Below, in pieces: positions 1-30,371 of a stretch of DNA of 30,720 bases. The translations under genes and the position numbers were made by a program. The DNA is taken from positions 1 through 30,720 of the forward strand of contig JBIOIY010000038.1 of NCBI GenBank assembly GCA_044450345.1, given 5' to 3'. Below the pieces are notes generated by a model, which saw nothing but the letters and a program-made list of their open reading frames with translations, was not told the DNA's origin and ran no database searches. Each line of letters begins with the position of its first letter. Within the stretch, counting starts at the first letter, position 1. This DNA is from Thermodesulfovibrionales bacterium (GTDB lineage Bacteria > Nitrospirota > Thermodesulfovibrionia > Thermodesulfovibrionales > UBA6898).

Positions 1-266
1 AACCATTCGTTTGGACGGCTACAGTAGAATCAATCATGACAAAACTCTCTCGCTGCAAACAAACGTTGGAAAAGATTCAGCCGGGCTGTACGTTACCACG
101 TTCTCGAAAGACAAGAAGGAATAACACCAGTCGTTTATGAGACACTACATTAGTTACATTGGCTGCCTCACTCTTATTGATCTTTGGTGCTAAACACATT
201 ACATCATTCTTGAGAAGAGAAAAACAAACTGAAACCGAACAATCAAATCAACCCGACGCAGAATAG
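1..266 (+). pseudogene. 3' part of first cassette gene, apparently disrupted
   Basis: Frame 141-266 encodes a hydrophobic helix and ends in TAG inside attC1. All three + frames have stops between 25 and 140, so no continuous ORF enters from the window edge. Confidence 0.4.
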
Positions 267-323
267 GGTCGGCGGTTTTTTTTACAGGCTGGTTGCCTGC
301 GCGGGTTATTTATTTCGTTATAT
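234..323 (+). repeat. attC site 1
   Basis: ACCGAAC...AAATCAACCCGACGCA...TGCGCGGGTTATTT...GTTATAT; R''/L''/L'/R' layout; close paralog of attC at 5114-5202. Confidence 0.9.
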
Positions 324-330
324 GCACTAA

Positions 331-750
331 ATGAATAAAAAAGAGAAAATAATAATCGGATATTTCCTGCTGTCTTGTCTCGGTGCTTTTTTAATATATC
401 CAAGGCCAAGCGAGGTGCTCGCACTATTTATTATTGGCAACGGTATCTTGGTTGTTCTTTTGGTGGCTGTGCCCAAGTTAATGAAAACATATGAATTTAC
501 AGAAAAGAAATATAGCACTAAAAACCTAATTGGTTACAGCATCCCAATTCTTATCGTAATTTACGCTGGTTGTTTTCTAAATGTGGCAATTGTTTCTCTA
601 TACGAAAAAAGGATAGTATGGAACATTCTTACAACTCGAAGAGGAAAGGCCTATCTTGCAATTGATATAGGTCTATTGTTTCTATTCCTCGCTTATTGTG
701 GCGTGTTTTATCTGCGGCACAAGCGCTGGCCTAAAATTAATGAAATATAA
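331..750 (+). CDS. Cassette-encoded hypothetical membrane protein (~4 TM)
   Basis: 139-aa ORF starting 7 nt after R'; four hydrophobic stretches. Confidence 0.8.
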   Translation: MNKKEKIIIGYFLLSCLGAFLIYPRPSEVLALFIIGNGILVVLLVAVPKLMKTYEFTEKKYSTKNLIGYSIPILIVIYAGCFLNVAIVSLYEKRIVWNILTTRRGKAYLAIDIGLLFLFLAYCGVFYLRHKRWPKINEI

Positions 751-767
751 ATCAAAAATGAAAAAGC

Positions 768-858
768 ATATAACACCAGCATCCAGCCGACCGCGTGTAA
801 GCGTGGTGCGTTTTTCAATTTGTCTTTGTGGCGCGTCGGCTGATGCAAGTCGTTAAAT
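768..858 (+). repeat. attC site 2
   Basis: ATATAAC-accag-CATCCAGCCGAC...GTCGGCTGATGC-aagtc-GTTAAAT. Confidence 0.92.
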
Positions 859-875
859 GCTAAATTGATAAAAAA

Positions 876-1197
876 ATGATAATAATAGGCTCCATATTTC
901 TGGCCCTAATGGGCATTCTTCTCTATGCGCTCTTCAATTTTGACTCACTGGTAAAAATCGAATATCAAAGACATAATGAAACCAAGAGGGTTCTTTTGGC
1001 ATGCTTCTGAATGCTCATGGCTTGGCAGTGCAATAGCCACAAACAAATTATCATTCATCTGGCTTTTCAGGTCACCGCACTGGATTCATAACGACGACGA
1101 AGCAACAAACCGCCTAAAAAAACTGCGAAGACTTGTGCTGATTTTTAATATCGGCATAGTTATTTGGTTCATAATCGCCATGACCCTAACTACATGA
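876..1197 (+). pseudogene. Frameshifted cassette membrane-protein gene
   Basis: ATG 876 gives MIIIGSIFLALMGILLYALFNFDSLVKIEYQRHNE and stops soon after. The apparent continuation KPRGFFW...TLTT is in another frame (976-1197), with the break at ~980. Confidence 0.7.
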
Positions 1198-1213
1198 ATA
1201 TCAGGGAAGAAAC

Positions 1214-1300
1214 ATTTAACAAAATCAAGGCGACGGTGAATAAGCCTCTGTGGGTTTCTCAAAAGCTAGTTGCCCCTGCGCCTCATTTCCCTCGTTACCC
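1214..1300 (+). repeat. attC site 3 (R''-L'' spacer shortened)
   Basis: ATTTAAC-a-AAATCAAGGCG...CGCCTCATTT-ccctc-GTTACCC. Confidence 0.8.
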
Positions 1301-1365
1301 TTAGAAATATAGAAAAATGATAATGTATAATATAGCCAAAGGGTAATTTAACAAAAGGAGTACAC

Positions 1366-1566
1366 ATGTCAAAGGTTGAAGAAATTAAAGAAGCCATTGA
1401 CTCATTGCCGGAGCAGGAATATGTCGAGTTGCGGCGTTGGTTATCCGAAAAGGACTGGGCAAAATGGGACCGGCAAATTGCTGAGCATTCCGATTCGGGA
1501 AAACTGGATTTTTTAATCACAGAAGCAAAAGAAGCAAAATCAAAAAATAAACTTCGGGAACTTTAA
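1366..1566 (+). CDS. Putative type II antitoxin
   Basis: 66 aa, AGGAG RBS, 'WDRQI...SGKLDFL..EA' pattern of small antitoxins paired with RelE/ParE-like toxins. TATAAT at 1326 suggests the cassette has its own promoter. Confidence 0.8.
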   Translation: MSKVEEIKEAIDSLPEQEYVELRRWLSEKDWAKWDRQIAEHSDSGKLDFLITEAKEAKSKNKLREL

Positions 1567-1827
1567 TTGCACCGTTCGACAGATCGCTTCTGGGAATGTT
1601 TCGACCGGCTGCCCGACCCAGTTCAAAAAACGGCAAAAAAGAATTTTGAACTACTGAAAACCGATTCCTCTCATCCATCGCTTCATTTCAAGAAAATAGG
1701 AAAGTTCTGGTCAATAAGGGCCGGAATGAATTACAGAGCTCTCGCCGTACAAGATGATCATGATTTCATCTGGGTTTGGATCGGGACCCATGACGAATAC
1801 GAAAGAATAATTAAACAGCAAGGGTAA
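1567..1827 (+). CDS. RelE/ParE-superfamily toxin
   Basis: 86 aa with 'HPSLHFKK', 'WSIR', 'YRAL' and 'WIGTHDEY' motifs; abuts the antitoxin. Confidence 0.88.
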   Translation: MHRSTDRFWECFDRLPDPVQKTAKKNFELLKTDSSHPSLHFKKIGKFWSIRAGMNYRALAVQDDHDFIWVWIGTHDEYERIIKQQG

Positions 1828-1888
1828 CAACCGCATCCAGCAGACGGGGATAACGCCTTTTCGTTCTTTATTCCGTCCGCCGTTGGCC
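1822..1888 (+). repeat. attC site 4 (L' box deleted)
   Basis: GGGTAAC-aacc-GCATCCAGCAGACGG...CCGTCCGC-C-GTTGGCC; the expected TGATGC partner of L'' is missing. Confidence 0.75.
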
Positions 1889-1912
1889 TGCAATAAGGAG
1901 AAATGTGAGACT

Positions 1913-2446
1913 ATGAATTCAAAGATTGTTATCAGAAACGAGACGCATAATGATGTTTGCGCGATAACTGAGGTGACTATCGCAGCGTTCAAGACCTTGG
2001 AGATCAGCAACCATACGGAGCAGTTCATCGTCGAAGCGCTACGTGCCGCCAAAGCTCTTACGGTATCGCTGGTTGCAGAAATGGATGGCCGAGTGATAGG
2101 ACATATTGCCTTTTCTCCCGTGACCATTTCCGATGGCACCCCTAACTGGTATGGACTTGGACCTGTTTCGGTGCTGCCCGCGTACCAGCGGCAGGGTATC
2201 GGTAAAGCGCTGATACAGGAAGGGTTGTCACGTCTCAAAGACATGAATGCTCAAGGATGTTGTCTCGTGGGACATCCGGATTACTACGGGAAATTCGGAT
2301 TCACAAACATGTCCGGACTTGTGCTTGCGGGAGTGCCACAGGAGGTCTTCTTCGCTCTATCTTTCGGCGGGCATACTCCGCAGGGCACTGTCGCTTTCCA
2401 TGAAGGGTTCAAAGCGGATGGCAATCATGAGGGTGCAGGCAACTAG
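1913..2446 (+). CDS. GNAT family N-acetyltransferase (YhbS-like)
   Basis: 'LGPVSVLPAYQRQGIGKALI' acetyl-CoA motif A and 'GHPDYYGKFGF'; TAAGGAG RBS before ATG 1913. Confidence 0.92.
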   Translation: MNSKIVIRNETHNDVCAITEVTIAAFKTLEISNHTEQFIVEALRAAKALTVSLVAEMDGRVIGHIAFSPVTISDGTPNWYGLGPVSVLPAYQRQGIGKALIQEGLSRLKDMNAQGCCLVGHPDYYGKFGFTNMSGLVLAGVPQEVFFALSFGGHTPQGTVAFHEGFKADGNHEGAGN

Positions 2447-2454
2447 TTCCGGAA

Positions 2455-2502
2455 TTCCAACCAGGCGCACAAGCCGTCAAGCGGCTTAGCTTGTTGTTAG
2501 GC
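2455..2502 (+). repeat. attC site 5 (very short, 48 bp)
   Basis: TTCCAAC-caggc-GCACAAGCCG-tcaag-CGGCTTAGC-ttgtt-GTTAGGC. Confidence 0.7.
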
Positions 2503-2509
2503 GGTAAGG

Positions 2510-3412
2510 ATGAAAACAATGAAAATACAAAACACTGTAAGCAAAGCTGGACTGAAAGCTTCCTTCCCCAAAGCTGCCATCTGGCTCTGGCTTTCGATTG
2601 TAGCGGCCCTTTTGGCCATAACTGGCAGCATCATTGCCCTATCCGTAAATAGAATCTACGCTGGATTAACTCCCGCCTTCTTGGTGCAGGCATTGGCACA
2701 GGATATAGCCAATCTGGCGGTTGTCTCACCGATGTGGCTTATCCTTGCAGCACTGGCGTTACGCGGCTCGTTGCGTGCTTATCTTCTCTGGTTGGGCGTG
2801 CTGACATTTACCGTCTACAACTATGTGATATACACGTTTTCAATACCGTTCGGGTCGTTATTCCTGGTGTGGGTTGCCGTGTTTGGAATGTGCACCTATT
2901 CACTGATCGGTGGCATCACTGCAATTGACCACAAGGTAGTCGAGTCATCTTTCACAAGTCGACGTGCGATCCTCGTTGTGGCTTGGTCTCTAATTATCAC
3001 AGCAATTCTCTTCAGTTTTCTATGGCTTTCTGAAGATGTGCCTGCCATCCTTTCCAACACAAGACCTCAGAGCCTGATTGACATGGCACTACCAACACAT
3101 CCTGTACACATCCTCGATCTGGGATTCTTCATACCAGCAGTCATCATTACTGGCATATTACTTTTCAAGAGAAAACCGCTTGCGTATGCCCTCGCACCAT
3201 CTTTCATTGTCTTCCTAATCTTGACGGGCATACCAATCTTGCTCACGCCTGTCATTCAGGCAGCGCGCGGCAAGACAGCAGCGTGGGGCGCAGTTGCACC
3301 AATCGGCACGCTCACCGCAGTGTTGCTTGCGTTGCTAGTGTGGTTACTCTCAACAATACGCCCCCAAGCGAAAACCGCCCAACAAACGCAAACCGTTGGG
3401 CGGCTTACCTAA
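2510..3412 (+). CDS. Cassette-encoded polytopic membrane protein (~8 TM)
   Basis: 300-aa hydrophobic ORF starting 7 nt after R'; it reads through the collapsed attC6. Confidence 0.85.
   Translation: MKTMKIQNTVSKAGLKASFPKAAIWLWLSIVAALLAITGSIIALSVNRIYAGLTPAFLVQALAQDIANLAVVSPMWLILAALALRGSLRAYLLWLGVLTFTVYNYVIYTFSIPFGSLFLVWVAVFGMCTYSLIGGITAIDHKVVESSFTSRRAILVVAWSLIITAILFSFLWLSEDVPAILSNTRPQSLIDMALPTHPVHILDLGFFIPAVIITGILLFKRKPLAYALAPSFIVFLILTGIPILLTPVIQAARGKTAAWGAVAPIGTLTAVLLALLVWLLSTIRPQAKTAQQTQTVGRLT
3377..3401 (+). repeat. attC site 6, collapsed to R''+R' only
   Basis: GCCCAAC-aaacgcaaacc-GTTGGGC; ACCGCCCAAC matches the entry GTTAGGCGGT (2496) with one mismatch. Confidence 0.78.
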
Positions 3413-3431
3413 TCAGAGAGGAAAAGAAGAA

Positions 3432-3986
3432 ATGCCCAAGAACCCTACGCGCGAAACAACTACCCATCAACAAACAGCAATAACATTAGGATGTTGTTCT
3501 GCAATACTCGCAAGCGTGCTCACCATCTTCTTTATCGTGCTTGCTGTCGGGACTACTCTCGTTTCCCCTACGAGAGCATGGAGTAGGATACAGACTTATG
3601 CCGAGAATTTCAACTTGCTCGAAAGGAAGTATTCCAGTTGGTTGAACGTATATCACCATGCAAGGGAGAACCCGGTGATCAAGTTTTTTGTCTTAAAATC
3701 AGGGAAATGGTCCATGGCCGATGTCATGGTGGTTGCCATATTTATGGCCTATATCGGATTTAATGGGATTATTGATAGCCAGTTCGATCAATTACGCTCA
3801 GCAAGCCAGGAACTGGTGATCTTAACTACGAATGGCACTTCCCTTCAGCCGGGGTATTACCCGTTCCTGACATACACCCTGTTGGCGTTATTTTTGTCAG
3901 GATTCCTAACCAGAAAATCTCAGGCATATGAGCGTAAGAATCCATACGGGGAAAAGGGGACCGATTTATTTTCTATTGGCGCCTAA
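3432..3986 (+). CDS. Chimeric ORF with PqiA-like C-terminal half
   Basis: 'GKWSMADVMVVAIF' and 'TSLQPGYY' are paraquat-inducible protein A motifs. The N-terminal ~65 aa look unrelated. GAGG precedes ATG 3432. Confidence 0.65.
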   Translation: MPKNPTRETTTHQQTAITLGCCSAILASVLTIFFIVLAVGTTLVSPTRAWSRIQTYAENFNLLERKYSSWLNVYHHARENPVIKFFVLKSGKWSMADVMVVAIFMAYIGFNGIIDSQFDQLRSASQELVILTTNGTSLQPGYYPFLTYTLLALFLSGFLTRKSQAYERKNPYGEKGTDLFSIGA

Positions 3987-4044
3987 CCATCGGTTCCAGT
4001 CGGACGCGGGCTGTTGCCCGCGCCGCTGATCCGCAACGTTCTGC
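3981..4044 (+). repeat. attC site 7
   Basis: GCCTAAC-catc-GGTTCCAGTCGGACGCGGGC...GCCCGCGCCGCTGATCC-gcaac-GTTCTGC. Confidence 0.92.
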
Positions 4045-4361
4045 GCAGAAACAATAATTAATTCATGACAATAACAGATCCAAAGGTATATAAAGCAAAC
4101 GGAATATATTTCCACATGGGCTTGCTCGCGTGTGTATTGTCTTTCGCGGTACTTAGCATGATAATTTTTATGTACGCTCATCATTGGATCGTTAAGACCG
4201 TCACCCTCATGCTCTGTCCCTCGGCTATATATTACCTCAGATATTTATTACAGAATTCTGAAATTGAAATCAGCATTGCGCCCGAAGGCATAATTTATAC
4301 CGGAATCGAGAAGAAAGGTCTGAAGATAAAGAAATACGAAGATACACTACGGTGGGATGAA

Positions 4362-4960
4362 GTCAACTACCCCCGACCTTGTCGGGGGCTTGAACAGCCT
4401 CGTGCTACGCACTCTTATTTCCATATCCGAAGCTGTTCTGTTTTCTTTTCCTCATCTTCCTGCGCAGCTATATATTTCCTTATCGTCTCTTCGTCCACTC
4501 CAACCGTACTCACGAAATACCCTCTTGCCCACATGTGCATCCCCCAGTATCTTCTTCTCAGATCTTCATGGTTCTTCATCATGCGCTCCGCACTCTTACC
4601 CTTCAGTATTTTCATCACTTCTGCCGGTGAATATTTCGGCGGTACGGACAAAAACATATGCACATGGTCTGACTGAATGCTCCCTTCGATAATCACAAAC
4701 TCTTTCCAGTTGCAGAGTTGTTCCAATATCTCTTGCAACTCTTTTTTGATCTGCTCGTCAAAAATCCTAAACCGATACTTCGGTACCCAGACAAAATGGT
4801 ATTTGCACTGATACACAACATGAGAGCTCTTCAAATACCGTTCCATGCATCAATTTTAACACAGGGCTTTTCTCCCACCAATTTCTTTGGTGGACATATT
4901 CGGTGTGGGGCCTTCGCCCCCACGCCCCACCACCGATTCCATCGGTGGTTTAGCTCGTTA
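4362..4960 (-). mobile_element. IS200/IS605-family element, tnpA only, 599 bp
   Basis: Subterminal hairpins CCCCCGAC-ctt-GTCGGGGG (4370-4388) and ACCACCGAT-tcc-ATCGGTGGT (4929-4949); no target duplication; boundaries inferred from restoration of the host ORF. Confidence 0.9.
4415..4846 (-). CDS. tnpA: IS200-family HUH (Y1) transposase
   Basis: 'YHFVWVPKYR', HUH motif 'DHVH', 'WARGYFVSTVG' and catalytic Tyr in 'IRKYI'. Confidence 0.97.
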   Translation of the reverse strand: MERYLKSSHVVYQCKYHFVWVPKYRFRIFDEQIKKELQEILEQLCNWKEFVIIEGSIQSDHVHMFLSVPPKYSPAEVMKILKGKSAERMMKNHEDLRRRYWGMHMWARGYFVSTVGVDEETIRKYIAAQEDEEKKTEQLRIWK

Positions 4961-5113
4961 ATTAAAAACGTTCATATAGAACAGCCGGAAAAAGGACCGA
5001 TAAAAATTCAAACCACACACGGCTCACTCCCGTTTTGGAATGCCGAGAATCCAAACGTAAATACCGAGATCGTTCGTGAACTGAACAAATATATAACGAC
5101 GGAAAAGAAGCGC

Positions 5114-5202
5114 GCAGAACAACCAAATCAACCCGGCACGGATTAAGGCTGGTTTGGTTTTTACACAGGTCTTCCCCGCACGGGTTATTTTTTTCGTTAT
5201 GT
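5114..5202 (+). repeat. attC site 8
   Basis: GCAGAAC-aacc-AAATCAACCCG...CGGGTTATTT-ttttc-GTTATGT; paralog of attC1. Confidence 0.9.
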
Positions 5203-5270
5203 TAGTGAGTTGATTTTCCAGCCATACTTTTATATTGCAATTATAGCCATACCGGTGGTAAGTTAAACTT

Positions 5271-5539
5271 ATGGAGGACATCCGCTTTGAGTGGGATGAA
5301 GAGAAGGATGAAGAAAATCAGTCGAAACACAATGTATCTTTTTCATTGGCGCAATATGCCTTTTTCGATCCGCATCGTATTATTGTTGAAGATATTAATC
5401 ACCGCGATGATTTTATTGTATAGGGCGGGCTGGCGAAGGAATACTAACGGTAAGATTCACCTATAGAGGAAATATTATCCGAATTTATGGAGCCGGATAT
5501 TGGAGAAAAGGGAGGAGGATATATGAGGAGCAAAATTAG
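5271..5539 (+). pseudogene. brnT: BrnT-family toxin, frameshifted
   Basis: MEDIRFEWDEEKDEENQSKHNVSF...EDINHRDD in one frame (stop 5421-5423). YCIGRAGEGILTVRFTYRGNIIRIYGAGYWRKGRRIYEEQN* continues in another frame from ~5414. Confidence 0.88.
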
Positions 5540-5762
5540 ATATACTGATGAACCATTGGGCGAGCTGAGAGTAATTAAAGACTTTCTTCCCTCACCGGAC
5601 CAATTGGTCTTAAAGGAAGAAAACGTCAAGGTTACGATTGCTCTAAAAAAAACCAGTATAGAATTCTTCAAGAAAGAGGCAAGAAAGCATCACACCTCTT
5701 ATCAAAAGATGATTAGACAGTTGATAGACTGGTACGCCTCGCATTATAAGAAAAGCGCATAA
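5523..5762 (+). CDS. BrnA/CopG-like antitoxin
   Basis: 'DFLPSPDQL...KVTIAL...IEFFKKEA...YQKMIRQL' ribbon-helix-helix; overlaps the brnT end; GGAGG RBS. Confidence 0.88.
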   Translation: MRSKIRYTDEPLGELRVIKDFLPSPDQLVLKEENVKVTIALKKTSIEFFKKEARKHHTSYQKMIRQLIDWYASHYKKSA

Positions 5763-5790
5763 CGCGTCAATCAGGGCTACGGGGAATAAT
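5757..5790 (+). repeat. Terminal attC half-site (R'' only)
   Basis: GCATAAC overlaps the antitoxin stop and pairs with entry GTTATGT; no downstream L'/R' before the convergent HD-GYP stop. Confidence 0.6.
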
Positions 5791-5794
5791 TGAA

Positions 5795-7042
5795 CTATCT
5801 TTCTCCTACGATGCGCAGAAACACCTCGACTACCCGTGGGTCGAAGCATTTTCCGGAGTTGTCCCTCAGGTAGGAGATGACCTTCTCCTCCGGCCATGCC
5901 TTGCGGTAAGGACGTTCTGAGCTCAGTGCGTCCCATTGGTCGACAACCGTGAAGAGCCGCGCGGGCAGCGGGATCTCGTCACCCTTCAGTCCCTGTGGAT
6001 ATCCGCACCCGTCCCACCTCTCGTGATGACAGTATGAAATAATAGAGGCCGGGCCGAGAAATGAAATCGGTTCGAGCATCTCCCTCGCGTAAACCGTATG
6101 TTTCTCCATTATCTTCTTCTCAGCATCATCGAGCGGACCGGGCTTCGACAGGATATGGTCCGGAATCGCCATCTTGCCTATATCATGTATGAGGGCACCC
6201 CTCTGGATGTGTCCGATATCTTCTTCACTGCAGTTCATCTCCCGGGCCAGACGCACACTGAGGGCGACTACTCTTCGGCTATGCCCTTCGGTTTCACTGT
6301 CCCGATATTCCAAAACCTTGGCCAGTCCCTCAAGGGTGAGGTGATACGTCTTGAGCAGTTCCTCTTCAGCCTGCTTTATATGTGCGATATTTCTTTCCGT
6401 GTTATGAATGATTACCCAGACCAGTGCGCTCGCAGCCATCAGCAGGACCCCCGCTGAAAGACAAAAGCCCGCGTCCGTTACAACGCGCGCAGGTGCATAT
6501 GACCCTTTGATTTCAAGATACGCCAGCACGGCCAGGGACCCGATCGAGGCGAGGGTGAGTACCGGTATTGCACGCTTGCCGAAGAACAGGCTGCCCACAA
6601 TGATAATCAGAGGATACACCAGCATGCCCGAGTCCTGCAGCCCCCCGGTGGCGTAAAGGTTGTAGTCTGCGGCACACACTATCACTGCGAGAGTAAGCGA
6701 AGCGGATTGCAGGTAGCGGCCCCGGGAATTCAGCCAAAATGCAGGAATGCAGAAGACAGACATGGCAAGGAGGGCAATCGCTATATTCCACGCATGAATG
6801 TAAACGTTCACCAGAAAGAGGGTGGCTCCGGCTACCACAATTACCCTGAGCATGGTGGCAAGGATCCTTTTCTGCTGCGCACGCTCATAAGGGGTTACGC
6901 CGGCCTGGCCGAACCGTTCTTTAACAGACAGGGATGCAGGGGGCGGAATGAGGCGCTTCAGTCCTTTGCAAAAAAACAGGACGCGCAGGGAACACGACGC
7001 GATCTCAGAGGTCCCTTTATTGTCCGAGCTGATCTTCCCCAT
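5795..7042 (-). CDS. Membrane-bound HD-GYP cyclic-dinucleotide phosphodiesterase
   Basis: N-terminal TM helices; 'ETEGHSRRV', 'HDIGK' and 'HHERWDGCGYP'. Start codon uncertain. Confidence 0.93.
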   Translation of the reverse strand: MGKISSDNKGTSEIASCSLRVLFFCKGLKRLIPPPASLSVKERFGQAGVTPYERAQQKRILATMLRVIVVAGATLFLVNVYIHAWNIAIALLAMSVFCIPAFWLNSRGRYLQSASLTLAVIVCAADYNLYATGGLQDSGMLVYPLIIIVGSLFFGKRAIPVLTLASIGSLAVLAYLEIKGSYAPARVVTDAGFCLSAGVLLMAASALVWVIIHNTERNIAHIKQAEEELLKTYHLTLEGLAKVLEYRDSETEGHSRRVVALSVRLAREMNCSEEDIGHIQRGALIHDIGKMAIPDHILSKPGPLDDAEKKIMEKHTVYAREMLEPISFLGPASIISYCHHERWDGCGYPQGLKGDEIPLPARLFTVVDQWDALSSERPYRKAWPEEKVISYLRDNSGKCFDPRVVEVFLRIVGER

Positions 7043-18432: not shown

Positions 18433-18522
18433 GGAGAGGTGCCAGAGCGGTTGAATGGGACGGTCTCGAAAATCGTTGTGGGGGCAACTCCACCCAGGGT
18501 TCGAATCCCTGCCTCTCCGCCA
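18433..18522 (+). tRNA. tRNA-Ser(CGA)
   Basis: GGAGAGG/CCTCTCC acceptor stem, anticodon loop CT-CGA-AA, long variable arm, TTCGAATCC, encoded CCA. Confidence 0.97.
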
Positions 18523-20290: not shown

Positions 20291-21238
20291 GTGAAAACGA
20301 AATTAACTCTGAGGGTCCTTTTTGTCCTCATCTGTTTATTTACTGTCATCGTTGCATTCAATTCCTGCAGACCTGCCGACAAATCGACCGGTGACGGCCA
20401 TCATAAACTCAGAGTGATCACAACGCTTTTCCCCCTGTACGATATGGCCAAACATATCGGGGCAGAGAAAGCGGAGGTGTCTTTGCTCTTGCCGCCTGGT
20501 GTGGAGGCCCATTCGTTTGAGCCCAGGCCCGGCGATATTGTCAAAATCAACGAGGCCGATATTCTTATCTATACAGGAAAATTCATGGAGCCGTGGGCCG
20601 AAGGTGTCATAAAAGGGGCTGCCGACAAAAATCTTATGGTGGTGGACGCCAGCCTTGGGACAAAAATGGTTCCCGGAGTGTTTCATGACAAAGACGAGCC
20701 CGCGGGATCCCTCGATCCACATATATGGCTGGACTTTGACAACGCCAAAATTATGCTTGAAAATATCTTGCACGCGTTCCAGACAAAGGACAGCGCCGGC
20801 AGGGGTTTTTATGAGCGGAGGGCCGCCGATTACCGCATCAAATTGGCTGAACTGGATTCTGCATATAAGTCTGCCCTGACGTCCTGCAAAAAGAAAGAGA
20901 TCGTCTATGCCGGGCACTATGCATTCGGCTATTTGGCAAATCGATACGGTCTCAAATATCTCGCAGCCCAGGGCGTATCGCCCGATGCCGAGCCCACAGC
21001 GAAAGACTTGGGCAGACTGGTAGAACAGATCAAAAGGGACAGGATCAAATATATCTATTACGAGGAGTTGGCAAGTCCGAAGATCGCTGAAACCATCGCA
21101 GATGAAACCGGTGCTAAGATGCTGATGCTAAACGCCGCCCATAATTTGGCCAGGGACCAGTTTGAAAAGGGCATATCCTTCTTTGATATTCTCAGGAACG
21201 ACCTTGATAACCTAAAGATCGGGCTCGAATGCCGCTAA
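20291..21238 (+). CDS. znuA: Zn/Mn ABC transporter substrate-binding lipoprotein
   Basis: 'EAHSFEP', 'DPHIWLD' and 'HYAFGYL'; AGGAG RBS before GTG 20291. Confidence 0.9.
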   Translation: MKTKLTLRVLFVLICLFTVIVAFNSCRPADKSTGDGHHKLRVITTLFPLYDMAKHIGAEKAEVSLLLPPGVEAHSFEPRPGDIVKINEADILIYTGKFMEPWAEGVIKGAADKNLMVVDASLGTKMVPGVFHDKDEPAGSLDPHIWLDFDNAKIMLENILHAFQTKDSAGRGFYERRAADYRIKLAELDSAYKSALTSCKKKEIVYAGHYAFGYLANRYGLKYLAAQGVSPDAEPTAKDLGRLVEQIKRDRIKYIYYEELASPKIAETIADETGAKMLMLNAAHNLARDQFEKGISFFDILRNDLDNLKIGLECR

Positions 21239-22179
21239 GCTGAAGTAGTATCCTGCTGAGTGATTTCGGATCCCCTTTCCGACCGGTGAATTTTTTCCCT
21301 GATATAGCCGTGCTTTTGCGCGGCATAGTCCAGGTGCAACGTCGCGAGGTCCTCGGCCGGCAAGAGCTCTGGCGGCGCAGGGGCGAAGGTCGTTATGATT
21401 TTTAAATAGCCTTTGCACTTTTCGCATGCCTCCACACGGTTCTTTTCACGCGGGTCTTGGGTATACAGGATGCCGAGCGTCCGGTGATCTTCGTTTCCGC
21501 AGTACAGGCATTGAAGACGGTTGAACTGCCAATCTGCGCCGCACCGGCCGCACCTCAGATGTTTCACCAGGTTGTTGTCCCGCAGCTCTCCGAAAATCGG
21601 CGTCGCGCCGCACACAAAACATTCTCCCCTCTGCCAGTGGATCCCTTCCGACAAAGGTGTCAATTGCCTGCGCCATGCATAAAACGATGGTTTAAGCGCG
21701 TTCTCCGCAATGGTCCGGAGGAGGCCGGAATCGAGGCCTTGATGCCGCGCCGAGGGTCCGTCTCTCTCATCTGAGGGAATATGAGAAAGAAGGCTGCCAA
21801 CGTCCAATCTGTCTTCCTCGATCGCCATCCTGATTTGCCGGGCATTACTGTTATTCCCGCAATTCTCCAGTGAGCCGGCGAGCCGGAGCATCAATGCCCG
21901 TGTCCCCTTTAGATCGACTTCGAGGTCAAGACCGTGGAGCAGGGGGAACCCCTCCTCCATTTTCCTGCGGGCCTGCTCAGGCGTCATACTGATCCGGGCA
22001 GTATGGAGATCCGCCTGACGGAGCAGAGTCAAAATGGCTTCATACGCATCAGCCGCCTCCCGCAGATCCGGCAGTTCACGTCCGACCTCACGCAGACGAT
22101 CCACACCCGGGTCTGAGGAACCGACGGAGCTACCCGCCATCACACACCGCGAATCTTCCCCGCTGGTTTCATTGCGCAA
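21235..22179 (-). CDS. fdhE: Formate dehydrogenase accessory protein FdhE
   Basis: Four CxxC pairs (CFVC, CGRC, CLYC, CEKC) and 'EDLATLHLD'; start may be 22140. Confidence 0.92.
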   Translation of the reverse strand: MRNETSGEDSRCVMAGSSVGSSDPGVDRLREVGRELPDLREAADAYEAILTLLRQADLHTARISMTPEQARRKMEEGFPLLHGLDLEVDLKGTRALMLRLAGSLENCGNNSNARQIRMAIEEDRLDVGSLLSHIPSDERDGPSARHQGLDSGLLRTIAENALKPSFYAWRRQLTPLSEGIHWQRGECFVCGATPIFGELRDNNLVKHLRCGRCGADWQFNRLQCLYCGNEDHRTLGILYTQDPREKNRVEACEKCKGYLKIITTFAPAPPELLPAEDLATLHLDYAAQKHGYIREKIHRSERGSEITQQDTTSA

Positions 22180-22999
22180 TGTCGGTCCGTTCCCCGTCCG
22201 ATGTTTCCCGGCTTCCTCTTTCCCTTACACTGACGAGGGCGGCTAGCCCGGCCAGTAACGTAGTAAATCTCGTGCCCATAGAGGAAATCGCCTTTCGCTG
22301 CGGGACCACCGGATTTTCGGGCAGTCCATACACCTCGGGTTTGTCCATCAGCAGATAAAATACCTTGAGCCCGCCGGCCTGGCTATAGCCGTAGATATTC
22401 GCCTTTGTCTGGCCCCGCTTCCTCAGCTGCGCGAGGCGCGAGTCCGCCTTTGCCTTAAGATCCGGAATATCTCCAAACATGATCGACCCCGTGGGGCATG
22501 CCTTGGCGCATGCGGTCCCGAGGCCGTTATGGATGCGGTCATTGCAGAGCGTGCACTTGTGCGAAGTCCGCGTCTTCTCGCTGAACTTGATCACCCCATA
22601 GGGACAGGCCTTGTTACAGAGCTTGGTGCCAACGCACTTGTCCTGACGGACGATCACATTTCCGAGGTCGGTATGCTCGATGGCGCTTACCGGGCAGACG
22701 TTGAGGCAGGCTGCATCGGTGCAATGTTTACACGAGTCGCTCATAAAAAGCCAACGCGATCCAACGCGGCGGTAATTGACCTGCTCGATGAAGAGCACGT
22801 GTCTCCAGTCCACTGCACTCAGTTTGCCGGTGTTGTCGTATGAGTTGCCGGTAAAATTGAAGGCCACGGGATAGGGCACTCCCGGCACCTTTCTGAAGTG
22901 TTCCGGTTCGGGACCCAGCCCGTTCCATTCCTTGCACGCAACCTGGCATGCCTTGCAGCCGGTGCATATCGATGAGTCTACGAACATTCCCTTTGCCAT
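22169..22999 (-). CDS. fdnH: Formate dehydrogenase iron-sulfur (beta) subunit
   Basis: 'CTGCKACQVACKEWN', 'CKHC...CLNVCP' and 'KCTLC..R'; short hydrophobic C-tail; GAGG RBS before ATG 22999. Confidence 0.93.
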   Translation of the reverse strand: MAKGMFVDSSICTGCKACQVACKEWNGLGPEPEHFRKVPGVPYPVAFNFTGNSYDNTGKLSAVDWRHVLFIEQVNYRRVGSRWLFMSDSCKHCTDAACLNVCPVSAIEHTDLGNVIVRQDKCVGTKLCNKACPYGVIKFSEKTRTSHKCTLCNDRIHNGLGTACAKACPTGSIMFGDIPDLKAKADSRLAQLRKRGQTKANIYGYSQAGGLKVFYLLMDKPEVYGLPENPVVPQRKAISSMGTRFTTLLAGLAALVSVRERGSRETSDGERTDIAQ

Positions 23000-23000
23000 G

Positions 23001-26000
23001 TCACGCACCTCCTCTCTTTCCCGCCCTGACACTGCAGGTGAAGACCTTCCCCTCATGGATCGTGACATTCGGGTCGGCAACAAGGGCGCTAAGGTTGTTC
23101 ACCACATCACCCTGGGCCGTTCCCTGCCATCCCCAATGCCATGGCAGACCGATTTGGTGTATGGTCCTGCCGTCGACAATGAAGGGCCTCATCCGCCGCG
23201 TCACAAGCGCCCGGGCCTCAACCTCTCCGCGGGCAGTTTCGATCGTCATATACTCTCCGTGGACGATGCCTTTCTCCTGCGCGAGTTCCGGCGATATCTC
23301 GCAGAATAGTTCCGGCATCAGTTCCGCCAGCCAGGGCAGCCAGCGGCTCATTGCGCCGCTGAGGTAGTGCTCAGTCAGGCGGTAGGTTGATACGACGATA
23401 GGATACTTCGGATCTGCGACCTTATGATAAGGGTTGCCCTCCACGTTCCATACCTTCGCCAGCGGATTTGCCTGCTGACTGTAAAGGACATTTTTTACCG
23501 GGGATTCATAAGGCTCGTAGTGGGTCGGCAGGGGTCCGTCCACAAGCCCGAATGGGGCGAAGAGCCATGCCTTGCCGTCCGGCCTCATGATAAAGGGATC
23601 ATCACCTCCCAGCCAGTCGAAGCCGAGGCCGTCGTCCCTTCCTTTGGAGCCGGGGGCCTTTGTCGGTTGGAAGTCGATGCCCTCGCCTGCCGGGGATATC
23701 CACTTACCGGCGGCCTGATCCCAAAAGACGAGTTTCTTCCTTTCCGACCACGGAACGCCCTTGAGGTCCGAAGAGGCACGGTTGTACATGATGTGGCGGT
23801 TGGCGGGCCAGGCGAATCCCCAGTGCGGAGATATCCAGTTGTCCCCCTGCCGGGATGCCGCGAGGTTCTTCCCCTCCTCGGGGATGACGCCGGTATAGAT
23901 CCATGCACCGCAGACGGTGGAGCCGTCCTCCTTGAGGTTCGCAAATGACGGGACCGGTTTCTTGTCGCTCCACGTATATCCGTTTATCTCCTTCAGCACT
24001 TTATAGGCCGACGGCTCGTCCTTGATCCTCCAGTTCGCAATCTCCGCGGCGGACGGTTCATAGTCCCAGGTGAGGTTCTTTATCGCCCAGTCCCGGCCAT
24101 ATGAGGAATCCTTGTAAAGCGCCTTCAGACGCTTGCCGAGATGATAGGTGAACCAGAGGTTGCTGCGGCAGTCATCCGGCGGGTCGGCCGCCTTTTCATG
24201 ATATTGGAGCAGCCGCTGCGTATTAGTGAATGACCCCTCCATCTCAGGTACGATCGCCGAGGGAAGGAATATGATCTCTGTCTTGATATCCGCCGTCTTC
24301 AGCTCTCCTGAATTGATCTCCGGCGAATTCCGCCAGAAGGCAGCGGTCTCGGTCTCATAGAAATCACGTACGACCATCCAGTCGAGCTTTGCCAGTGCCT
24401 TGCGCTGAAAACGCGCGTTCTGGCCGCCGACGGCCGGGTTCTGACCCACGCAAAGGAAGCCCCTGATCTTGCCGTCCATCATGTCCACAAACATCGGCAG
24501 ATGCGAATGGTCGCCGGTGATCTTAGGATGGTGGTCGTAGCCGTAGTCGTTTTCCTTCGTGGCCGCATCGCCGAACTGGGCCTTGAAATAAGAAACGGCG
24601 AACTTCGGGTAGTTCCCCCAATAGCTTGTCGATACCGGGACAGCCTCGGTCAGGATGAAGTCCTTCAGAGTGTCATGGTTCAGACGGGCGTCCGGCATGT
24701 TCAGATAGCCGGGCAAGGAGTGATAGAGCGTAGCGATGTCGGTGGAACCCTGGATCGTCGAGTGGCCGCGCAGCGCAAGCACACCCCCACCCGGTCTGCC
24801 TATGTTGCCCAGCAGGGCCTGGAGCATCCCGGCGGTGCGGATGATCTGCACGCCTACGGTGTGCTGGGTCCAGCCGACCGCATAAGTAATGTTCGATGTC
24901 TTATCACGGCCGGAATTGCTCAACAGCGTCTCCGCCACCTCGAGAAAGACCTCTTTGGAACAGCCGCAGATGCGTTCGACCATCTCCGGGGTATAGCGAC
25001 TATAATGCTTTCTTACGATCTGGAAGACGGTGTGAGGGTCCTGCAGCGTGGGATCGGTCTTCGGCCTGCCGGGGATCCTCTGGAGAAGAAGGTCCGTAAA
25101 GGTCTTCGCCTCGCTTACGGAAGGCTTCGGCGCCGGGTGGCGCTGGTAGGACCAGCTCTCCTTCGAGTATGTCTTCTTATCCGTCGAAAGGCCCGAGAAT
25201 ACGCCGTCGAGGTCATCGGCGTCCTTGAAATCAGGACTGACCAATGTCGCGGCGTTGGTATAGTTTACGACATATTCTTTAAAGAACGGGTCGGTCTTCC
25301 ATCGTTCGCTGTTGATGACGTGGGTGATCAGCCCGCCTAGGAAGGCTATGTCGGTGCCCGCCCTGATCTGCGCATGGATGTCGCAATGGGCGGACGTCCG
25401 CGTAAAGCGCGGGTCCACATGCATGAGGACCGCACCGTGATCGGTCTTGGCCTTCAACGGCCAGCGAAATGCAACAGGATGGCACTCCGCCATATTCGAG
25501 CCCATGATCATTACCGCGTCTGAGTTGACGAGATCACGCGGAAATGTAGTCGAACCTCCACGACCGAAGCTTACCCCCAGACCGGGGACAGTGGAGGAGT
25601 GTCATATACGGGCCTGGTTTTCGACATAGACCACACCCATTGCGTGCATCAGTTTTTGCTGGGCGTAGTTCCATTCGTTGTCTATGGTAGCGCCACCCAA
25701 CGACGCCACAGAATAGGTGTTCATGACACGCCTTTTCAACTTGCCGCCCTTTCCGTCCGGCATATCCTGAAATTCGTTGAAGTTGGCGTCCCTTGTCTGC
25801 TTCACCAGCTCGGCGGCGCGGTTCATGGCCCATTCGAGAGACCTCTCCTCCCAGTGATCGCTCCCGGGCGCCCGGTACTTCACCTTTGTCCACCGCAGGT
25901 CGTTTACGACAAGCTGGTACGTGGCGGCGCCTTTTGGGCAGAGGGTGCCCTCGTTGAGCGGAGAATCCGGGTTGCCCTGGATATCGATTATCTTCCCTGA

Positions 26001-26204
26001 GTCGTCGGTCATAACGATCTGCGCGCATCCTACCGAGCAGTACGGACAAAGGCTGGGGGTCTGCTTTCCTGTCTTCATTGAGACGGTCCCTGCCTTCTCC
26101 TGGGCAGCTGCCGTGTCAAGCCCGAGACCAAGGACCTCGGCGGCAACAGCAGTGCCTATAGTGCCCGCAGAGATCTTGATGAATTCCCTCCGGTCGACTT
26201 CCAT
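23001..26204 (-). CDS. fdnG: Formate dehydrogenase alpha subunit, selenocysteine-containing (1067 aa)
   Basis: Tat signal 'DRREFIK' and 'CPYCSVGC...CPKG'. The two listed ORFs are one frame joined by TGA 25602-25604 in 'ENQARI-U-HSSTVPGLG'. Confidence 0.96.
25570..25601 (-). promoter_or_regulatory. Bacterial SECIS element
   Basis: Minus strand after UGA: CACTCCTCCACTGT-CCCC-GGTCT-GGGG; a hairpin with the GGUCU apex like E. coli fdhF SECIS. Confidence 0.85.
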
Positions 26205-30137: not shown

Positions 30138-30213
30138 GGGCGGATAGCTCAGCTGGGAGAGCACAGCCCTTACAAGGCTGGGGTCACAGGTTCGATCCCT
30201 GTTCCGCCTACCA
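30138..30213 (+). tRNA. tRNA-Val(TAC)
   Basis: 76-nt cloverleaf, anticodon loop CT-TAC-AA, GGTTCGATCCC, CCA. Confidence 0.97.

Positions 30214-30294: not shown

Positions 30295-30371
<77 letters not shown>

What the first reader, a model, noticed from the sequence alone, without database searches (positions are those of the whole stretch)
1..5790. Unannotated integron cassette array (at least 9 cassettes) joined to core chromosome
Seen: eight attC sites plus a half-site, with exit boxes that complement the preceding entry box, often beyond the 7-bp core. Several core sites deviate from the GTTRRRY consensus (GTTACCC, GTTCTGC, GTTGGCC, GTTATAT). Known: such complementarity is the hallmark of cassettes that integrated as circles through IntI. 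Inference: this is a sedentary chromosomal integron or CALIN, possibly in a little-studied lineage, and most cargo is of unknown function.
Basis: partly seen in the sequence, partly recalled or inferred. Interest (0 to 1): 0.75.

Follow-up and report, generated by a model that had tools for sequence, protein, structure and literature searches.

The report
Eroding integron array, antiterminator-primed platform
This is a real but decaying row of nine swappable gene cassettes whose front end is cut off in this assembly; at the same chromosomal spot two related species start the row with a promoter and a short signal that likely loads an anti-termination protein, which would let far-off cassettes be read rather than stay silent.

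Summary
The array is real: nine cassettes at 154-5790. A model built from 14 attC sites outside the window scores five window sites at 39-71 bits on the bottom strand. Three more sites are damaged and the last is a half-site, so "eight attC" overstates the intact ones. The contig starts inside an IS630; an IS200 splits cassette 7. No intI is in this MAG, but the expected upstream genes (coaD, rsmD) are missing too. Other assemblies confirm the junction, show different cassettes there, and one close relative has the site empty. At this site two congeners carry promoter, ops-like motif, intI remnant and array. The motif lies within 1 kb past the intI stop, facing the array, at 10 of 25 relatives' loci (0 of 25 opposite, 0 of 29 in a wider phylum sample). 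It also follows 12 of 30 RfaH-like genes, including this genome's. Best reading: tail of a chromosomal integron likely transcribed under RfaH-type antitermination. The window's own leader is unseen and no RNA was tested. My searches found no paper on this; the scan noted a similar idea in another genome (e1-9570380).

The parts
1..153 (+). 3' end of an IS630-type element inserted in cassette 0; likely why the contig breaks here
   Evidence: 89.5% identical to the end of a full copy with a 379-aa transposase frame on G000:C47; family name recalled from the protein's look
154..316 (+). cassette 0 remnant (3' end of a small gene)
   Evidence: no Pfam family
234..323 (+). attC1, intact
   Evidence: 69.2 bits, bottom strand
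331..750 (+). cassette 1 gene, 139-aa hydrophobic protein of unknown family
   Evidence: exit matches entry over 9 nt
768..858 (+). attC2, intact
   Evidence: 70.9 bits
876..1197 (+). cassette 2, two overlapping frames, probably one frameshifted membrane-protein gene (not tested on homologues)
1214..1300 (+). attC3, intact
   Evidence: 52.4 bits
1366..1827 (+). cassette 3: 66-aa putative antitoxin and ParE-like toxin (bacterial toxin-antitoxin pair)
   Evidence: PF24732 E 6.5e-6; 1292-1647 is 97.75% identical to a cassette in G004's intI-bearing array
1822..1888 (+). attC4, damaged (left arm present, L' missing)
   Evidence: 9.9 bits
1913..2446 (+). cassette 4, GNAT acetyltransferase
   Evidence: PF00583 E 4e-11
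2455..2502 (+). attC5, shortened or damaged
   Evidence: 11 bits
2510..3412 (+). cassette 5, 300-aa polytopic membrane protein of a large unnamed family
   Evidence: 841 homologues among 7995 scored; the 120 listed are 72-96% identical and carry no Pfam family
3377..3401 (+). attC6, collapsed to R''-11 nt-R'
   Evidence: not scored by R1
3432..3986 (+). cassette 6, weakly PqiA-like membrane protein, possibly internally deleted near 3651
   Evidence: PF04403 E 0.003, below cut-off; contigs of three runs diverge before 3651
3981..4044 (+). attC7, intact short type
   Evidence: 38.8 bits
4065..5146 (+). cassette 7 gene (160 aa without the IS), split by IS200
   Evidence: X1, X2 and X4 contigs skip 4361-4959; the flanks are in frame
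4361..4959 (-). IS200 element, tnpA at 4415-4846
   Evidence: NF033573 159.6 bits over cut-off 55; boundaries
5114..5202 (+). attC8, intact
   Evidence: 63.8 bits
5271..5762 (+). cassette 8: BrnT-type bacterial toxin gene in two frames and a putative antitoxin (DUF6364-like)
   Evidence: PF04365 on both pieces; replaced by 123 other letters in X1 and X2 contigs
5757..5790 (+). terminal half attC (R'' and L'' only)
   Evidence: not scored by R1
5795..7042 (-). HD-GYP domain gene, convergent core flank that marks the site
   Evidence: PF13487 E 6.9e-35; joined to the ncam-coaD-rsmD block with no array in L046

Best explanation
The window holds the far, eroding end of an integron cassette array whose front end is cut off by an IS630 at the contig edge, and that missing front end is likely the family's promoter + ops-like signal + intI (whole or broken) + attI unit, which would load the genome's RfaH-like protein so that transcription reads far into the array. 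Shown: nine cassettes, five intact attC sites, two IS insertions, cassette turnover between strains, and an empty site in a close relative. Shown in other DNA: at the same site (just past the ncam-coaD-rsmD block) G004 and G005 have a sigma70-like promoter, the motif about 125 nt later, an intI remnant on the opposite strand, then cassettes; this genome has the same leader before an attI-like site and an array on C44, and the same motif behind its RfaH-like gene ahead of a polysaccharide operon. Inferred: IntI built the array by attC/attI recombination; cassettes 3-6 and 8 can no longer excise singly; the leader fires through intI (antisense) into the array; RfaH loading suppresses polarity on these foreign genes, which would explain why leader and array persist after intI decays.
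For: Array. Structure covaries in relatives' sites: 11 of 17 pairs with two-sided changes, 93% of cells paired against 31-48% when slid. Mobility: cassette 3 at 97.75% in G004's intI array; X1 and X2 contigs keep cassette 7 and the HD-GYP junction but differ on both sides. Missing head: no rsmD, coaD or ncam in G000; of 13 long frames upstream of the site in L046 only 3 hit G000, at 34-57%. Same site: intI remnants in L143 and L158 with the exact motif 998 and 1319 nt past ncam; no motif and no attC at L045/L046, G001, G002 or G003. Motif with at most 1 mismatch within 1 kb past the intI stop, toward the array: 10 of 25; opposite strand 0 of 25; wider phylum 0 of 29; random 1-kb windows 0 of 600. 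Promoter pattern upstream in 18 of 22 integron-linked copies against 25 of 3000 random windows. NusG paralogue on C24, best match RfaH, K10 and R73 kept; motif after 12 of 30 such genes, 0 of 30 opposite. G003 has the same T-to-C variant at both its rfaH-linked and intI-linked copy.
Against: The window's own leader, attI and intI are not in the assembly; read-laying on G004's copy could not tie a leader to the HD-GYP contig. No RNA or biochemical data. 15 of 25 intI loci lack the motif, 9 of 19 within the family. The motif and promoter patterns were drawn from some of the counted loci (L038, L204, L205, L207 seen first; of six leaders not viewed before, four fit the promoter pattern). Kin are not independent, and the T-to-C match is one clade. 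The paralogue scores below the RfaH cut-off (94.8 against 144.5 bits) and lacks H20 and R23. Four of the 10 motif copies change T6, which E. coli RfaH reads directly (PMC5995543, passages). G015 (99% complete), G021 and G007 have an intI-linked motif but no match to the paralogue at E<=1e-30. Only 7 of 30 sampled motif loci show intI or attC within 1.5 kb.
Confidence: 0.55

Rival explanations
1. It is the tail of an ordinary chromosomal integron or CALIN; cassettes are expressed only from a Pc near attI or from their own promoters, and the ops-like leader is absent here, or is a passenger, or serves mainly to damp intI by antisense transcription.
For: More than half of relatives' intI loci lack the motif. 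The paralogue is divergent. Nothing upstream of position 1 is visible. Distal cassettes are normally silent (PMC8876359, passages).
Against: Leaders of unrelated sequence keep promoter, spacing (mostly 100-160 nt) and motif. They persist where intI is deleted (L027, L143, L158, L172, L174, L175, L185), which pure intI control does not predict. Empty sites lack the leader.
Confidence: 0.3
2. The array never had its own platform here: it was moved in by an IS630-mediated rearrangement from an integron elsewhere (for instance beyond the start of C25), or grew from cassettes inserted at a secondary site.
For: IS630 sits at the array's cut edge. IS-driven splitting and secondary-site insertion are described routes to CALINs (PMC4889954 passages; 10.1101/2022.09.11.507474 sections 27 and 30). 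C25 and C76 have leaders ending at contig edges. Gene order around nadC differs from all 7 congeners.
Against: Two congeners have a platform remnant at this same site. X1 and X2 have cassette 7 at the same junction. The IS630 interrupts a cassette gene, so it lies inside the array rather than bounding it.
Confidence: 0.12
3. The array-to-core junction is an assembly or binning chimera.
For: The genome is a MAG in 86 contigs and the array starts at a contig edge with lower GC.
Against: Single contigs from runs X1 and X2 (two studies) span cassette 7, attC8 and the HD-GYP gene at about 98% identity; L053 shows other cassettes at the same junction.
Confidence: 0.03

Closest known systems
CALIN and chromosomal integron arrays (Cury et al. 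2016, PMC4889954, passages read)
   Same: Two or more attC sites with co-oriented single-gene cassettes, unknown cargo, IS inside the array, several small clusters per genome.
   Different: Most CALINs (95%) have no intI pseudogene nearby, whereas this site carries remnants in both congeners that have an array with visible head; a conserved promoter and ops-like leader lies beyond the intI 3' end.
Sedentary chromosomal integrons such as the Vibrio cholerae array (recalled; search listings only)
   Same: Chromosomal, toxin-antitoxin cassettes, lineage-typical attC of about 90 bp.
   Different: Short, present or absent among close relatives, different integrase types at one site, several platforms per genome.
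Class 1 integron Pc promoter inside intI1 (recalled; PMC8876359 passages on position effect)
   Same: A promoter firing against intI into attI and the cassettes.
   Different: Here the promoter lies past the intI stop codon and is followed by an ops-like motif; that review has 0 occurrences of 'RfaH' or 'antiterminat'.
RfaH/ops antitermination of Enterobacteria (PMC5995543, PMC7593976, passages read)
   Same: NusG paralogue, ops-like motif in a leader downstream of a promoter, a polysaccharide operon as one target, long foreign operons as targets.
   Different: Divergent paralogue below the RfaH cut-off in Nitrospirota; targets would include integron arrays (0 occurrences of 'integron' in PMC7593976); function untested.

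Membership tests
Integron cassette array | attC sites with R''/R' and L''/L' boxes and bottom-strand hairpin with extrahelical bases | tested here: met
   5 sites at 39-71 bits with a model from non-window sites; 3 damaged sites and 1 half-site not met. IntegronFinder's own model was not available.
Integron cassette array | co-oriented ORFs between attC sites, exit complementary to entry | tested here: met
   all cassette genes on +; 5 of 8 cassettes match over 6-9 nt
Integron cassette array | cassettes move between arrays | tested here: met
   cassette 3 in G004's array; different neighbours in X1 and X2; sequence evidence only
Complete integron | intI next to the array | tested here: inconclusive
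   no IntI in G000, but the upstream region is missing
Complete integron | attI before the first cassette | not testable with these tools
   array cut at the contig start
CALIN | no intI nearby | tested here: inconclusive
   same gap; G004 and G005 have only remnants at this site
Sedentary chromosomal integron | fixed at one locus across the lineage | tested here: not met
   site empty in L045/L046, G001, G002, G003; two integrase types at the site
RfaH/ops-controlled operon | ops-like motif on the non-template strand after a promoter, upstream of the genes | tested here: inconclusive
   met at the same site in G004 and G005 and at G000:C44; not observable for the window; ops consensus recalled
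RfaH/ops-controlled operon | RfaH-type NusG paralogue in the genome | tested here: inconclusive
   second NusG-family gene, best match RfaH but under cut-off; 2 of 4 DNA-contact side chains kept
RfaH/ops-controlled operon | paralogue- and motif-dependent read-through | not testable with these tools
   needs RNA or reporter data

The most novel reading that the evidence does not exclude
Integrons of this Nitrospirota family travel as a platform headed by an outer promoter and an ops site that recruits the host's RfaH-like factor, turning the whole cassette array, including this one, into one antiterminated operon that stays expressed and selected after the integrase gene is lost.
Probability: 0.4. 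Interest if true: 0.75.

Novelty: new variant of a known kind. Interest (0 to 1): 0.52.

Why it matters
The textbook view is that only cassettes near the promoter are expressed and that integrase must reshuffle the rest. An antitermination-loaded leader would break that position rule and offer a reason why integrase-less arrays (CALINs) are kept, which is an open question. It can be tested with a simple reporter. The array in the window by itself is ordinary; the interest rests on the platform seen in relatives and elsewhere in this genome.

Tried and rejected
IntI search in the own genome by family, tblastn, blastn and a custom profile found only XerC/D-like and phage-type recombinases. Synteny through nadC was uninformative: bioB follows in 6 of 7 congeners directly and in G004 after one more gene; the HD-GYP gene and coaD proved to be the right markers. 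Rfam gave only 3 tRNAs in the window and nothing relevant for the leaders, so my interim ideas that the leader is a 6S RNA, riboswitch or transposon end were dropped. A DNA search with the whole 176-nt leader hit only 3 of 54 family genomes: only promoter and motif are conserved. PADLOC on 14 cargo pieces gave one weak hit, E 0.032. Minimum-energy folding did not separate intact from damaged sites. My hand-made attC scanner missed two intact sites and gave many false hits. L047's attC-like end is by eye only; R1 did not score it. L053's best site was in the training set. L045 and L046 look like one organism and are counted once. Laying runs on G004's site showed a leader joined near the attI-like stretch in X1 and X6, but on repeat-bearing pieces that cannot be placed. 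All 20 runs held under 0.2 of the words; no habitat is claimed. The protein atlas gave no answer, so cassette 5 has no functional lead. Five partial intI matches of the 30 were not examined for the motif. Literature: searches found no paper joining integrons with RfaH/ops or describing integrons of this lineage (listings only; subscription papers and supplements not seen).
Full report
Observation. The window is a whole contig, G000:C38. Between 154 and 5790 lie nine co-oriented cassette units at 44.3% GC against 53.0% for the rest. I aligned 14 attC sites from outside the window. Their bottom-strand structure covaries: 93% of cells pair, 11 of 17 pairs change on both sides, and slid controls pair at 31-48%. 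The model built from them scores five window sites at 38.8-70.9 bits on the bottom strand, two damaged sites at 11 and 9.9 bits, and nothing in the core part. The 25-nt site at 3377-3401 and the terminal half-site are not scored. Exit boxes match their own entry over 9, 8, 9, 9 and 6 nt in five cassettes but only 3-4 nt in cassettes 4-6.

Anatomy and decay. Positions 1-153 match the end of a full IS copy on C47 at 89.5%, which likely explains the contig break inside cassette 0. An IS200 fills 4361-4959: contigs from three runs skip exactly this stretch and the flanks are in frame. Cargo is a ParE-like and a BrnT-type toxin-antitoxin pair (the brnT gene in two frames), a GNAT, a weak PqiA-like protein and unknown membrane proteins. 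By inference, cassettes 3-6 can now leave only as a block and cassette 8 not at all.

The junction is real and the site is variable. Single contigs from X1 and X2 span cassette 7, attC8 and the HD-GYP gene at about 98% identity, with 123 other letters in place of cassette 8. L053 has other cassettes at the same junction. L046, 96% identical to the window's core, has the HD-GYP gene joined directly to a gene I call ncam (nicotinamidase-like by eye; no NCBIfam hit), coaD and rsmD. Part of cassette 3 is 97.75% identical to a cassette in G004's intI-bearing array, so cassettes have moved recently between species.

Where is the integrase? None is in G000, although 16 of 24 same-family and 4 of 7 same-genus genomes have one. 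G000 also lacks coaD, rsmD and ncam, so the contig that should precede the array is missing from this 91%-complete MAG and absence cannot be claimed. Past ncam, G004 has a bounded array with a 34-aa intI C-terminal remnant, ending before its HD-GYP gene. G005 has an internally deleted intI and an array; its contig ends before any far flank. The two remnants are 94% and 96% identical to intact integrases that share only 37%. G001, G002 and G003 have no attC there. nadC places the organism near Ca. Sulfobium, Thermodesulfovibrionales.

An unexpected head. Both occupied sites carry a short motif just past the intI stop, facing the cassettes (20 and 46 nt), and unoccupied sites lack it. It matches the ops consensus as I recall it; the base numbering agrees with PMC5995543 (passages). 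In G000 one copy follows a second NusG-family gene on C24 and precedes a MarR-EPS regulator and a sugar epimerase. The protein's best matches are RfaH, though under the cut-off, with K10 and R73 kept and H20 and R23 lost. The other three exact copies precede an attI-like site and array on C44, or end near contig edges on C25 and C76. Across 25 of the 30 intI matches, the motif (at most 1 mismatch) lies within 1 kb toward the array in 10 (10 of 19 within the family), against 0 of 25 on the other strand, 0 of 29 in a wider phylum sample and 0 of 600 random windows. A sigma70-like pattern precedes 18 of 22 integron-linked copies, against 25 of 3000 random windows, but only 2 of 6 rfaH-linked copies. 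The motif follows 12 of 30 paralogue genes and 0 of 30 on the other strand. G003 shares a T-to-C variant between its rfaH-linked and intI-linked copies; G002 (rfaH-linked) and G007 (intI-linked) have it too. That is probably one event.

Mechanism. Shown: array, decay, turnover, and the leader in other DNA. Inferred: RNA polymerase starts at the outer promoter, pauses at the motif, loads the paralogue and reads antisense through intI into the array. RfaH is known to protect long foreign operons from Rho (PMC7593976, passages). Leaders that outlive intI fit selection for cassette expression. Against this: the window's leader is unseen (inconclusive), the patterns were partly drawn from counted loci, genomes are kin, three genomes with an intI-linked motif gave no paralogue match, and only 7 of 30 sampled motif loci show intI or attC within 1.5 kb.

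Comparison and verdict. As an array it is a member of a known kind (PMC4889954, passages). It fails the 'sedentary' test and cannot be filed as complete integron or CALIN. Eight literature searches showed no paper linking integrons to RfaH/ops, judged from listings; a 2022 review of cassette expression has no mention. After I had formed and tested the idea, the scan's index returned a similar unreviewed reading from another genome; it is not evidence here. Verdict: real array, new variant through its likely platform, interest 0.52.

Noticed in passing
G000:C44:22209-24087 (L027:5210-7088): Second array with promoter, ops-like motif, attI-like site resembling G004's, two intact attC and no intI: the cleanest in-genome example of the platform without integrase.
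   Followed up: partly
G000:C25:29-240 and C76:429-586: Leader copies ending 28 and about 430 nt from contig edges; C25 is orthologous to the flank of G004's intact integron, so an unassembled intI may lie there.
   Followed up: partly
G000:C10:39690-39753, C17:43486-43552, C3:161172-161236, C48:21206-21286: Further single attC sites scattered in the genome; G004 has 23 and G005 24 model hits in several clusters.
   Followed up: partly
G000:C3:161230 and C44:24081: The same short sequence starts exactly at the GTT of two attC sites, as the earlier finding on IS1182-type elements describes; it is absent from the window.
   Followed up: partly
window 5757-5790; L053, L047, L027, L143 array ends: Arrays repeatedly end in a truncated attC, cut at different points; in L053 the cut also removes the last codons of the HD-GYP gene. 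Mechanism unexplained (deletion, or IntI acting at secondary sites).
   Followed up: no
window 2496-4037: Entry and exit boxes of cassettes 5 and 6 match crosswise (8 and 9 nt) rather than their own, around the collapsed attC6; may be a fused two-gene cassette.
   Followed up: no
window 21235-26204: Formate-dehydrogenase-like cluster by eye (FdhE-like, iron-sulfur subunit, and a large subunit in two frames, 25602-26204 and 23001-25511, possibly a selenocysteine read-through).
   Followed up: no
window 18433-18519, 30138-30210, 30295-30368: Three tRNA genes.
   Followed up: no
L038:11168-11620 (G004): A toxin-antitoxin pair resembling cassette 3's sits between the ops-like motif and the intI stop, without attC.
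   Followed up: no
L041 (G005:C42): An integron whose flank looks phage- or plasmid-like by eye and lacks the motif.
   Followed up: no
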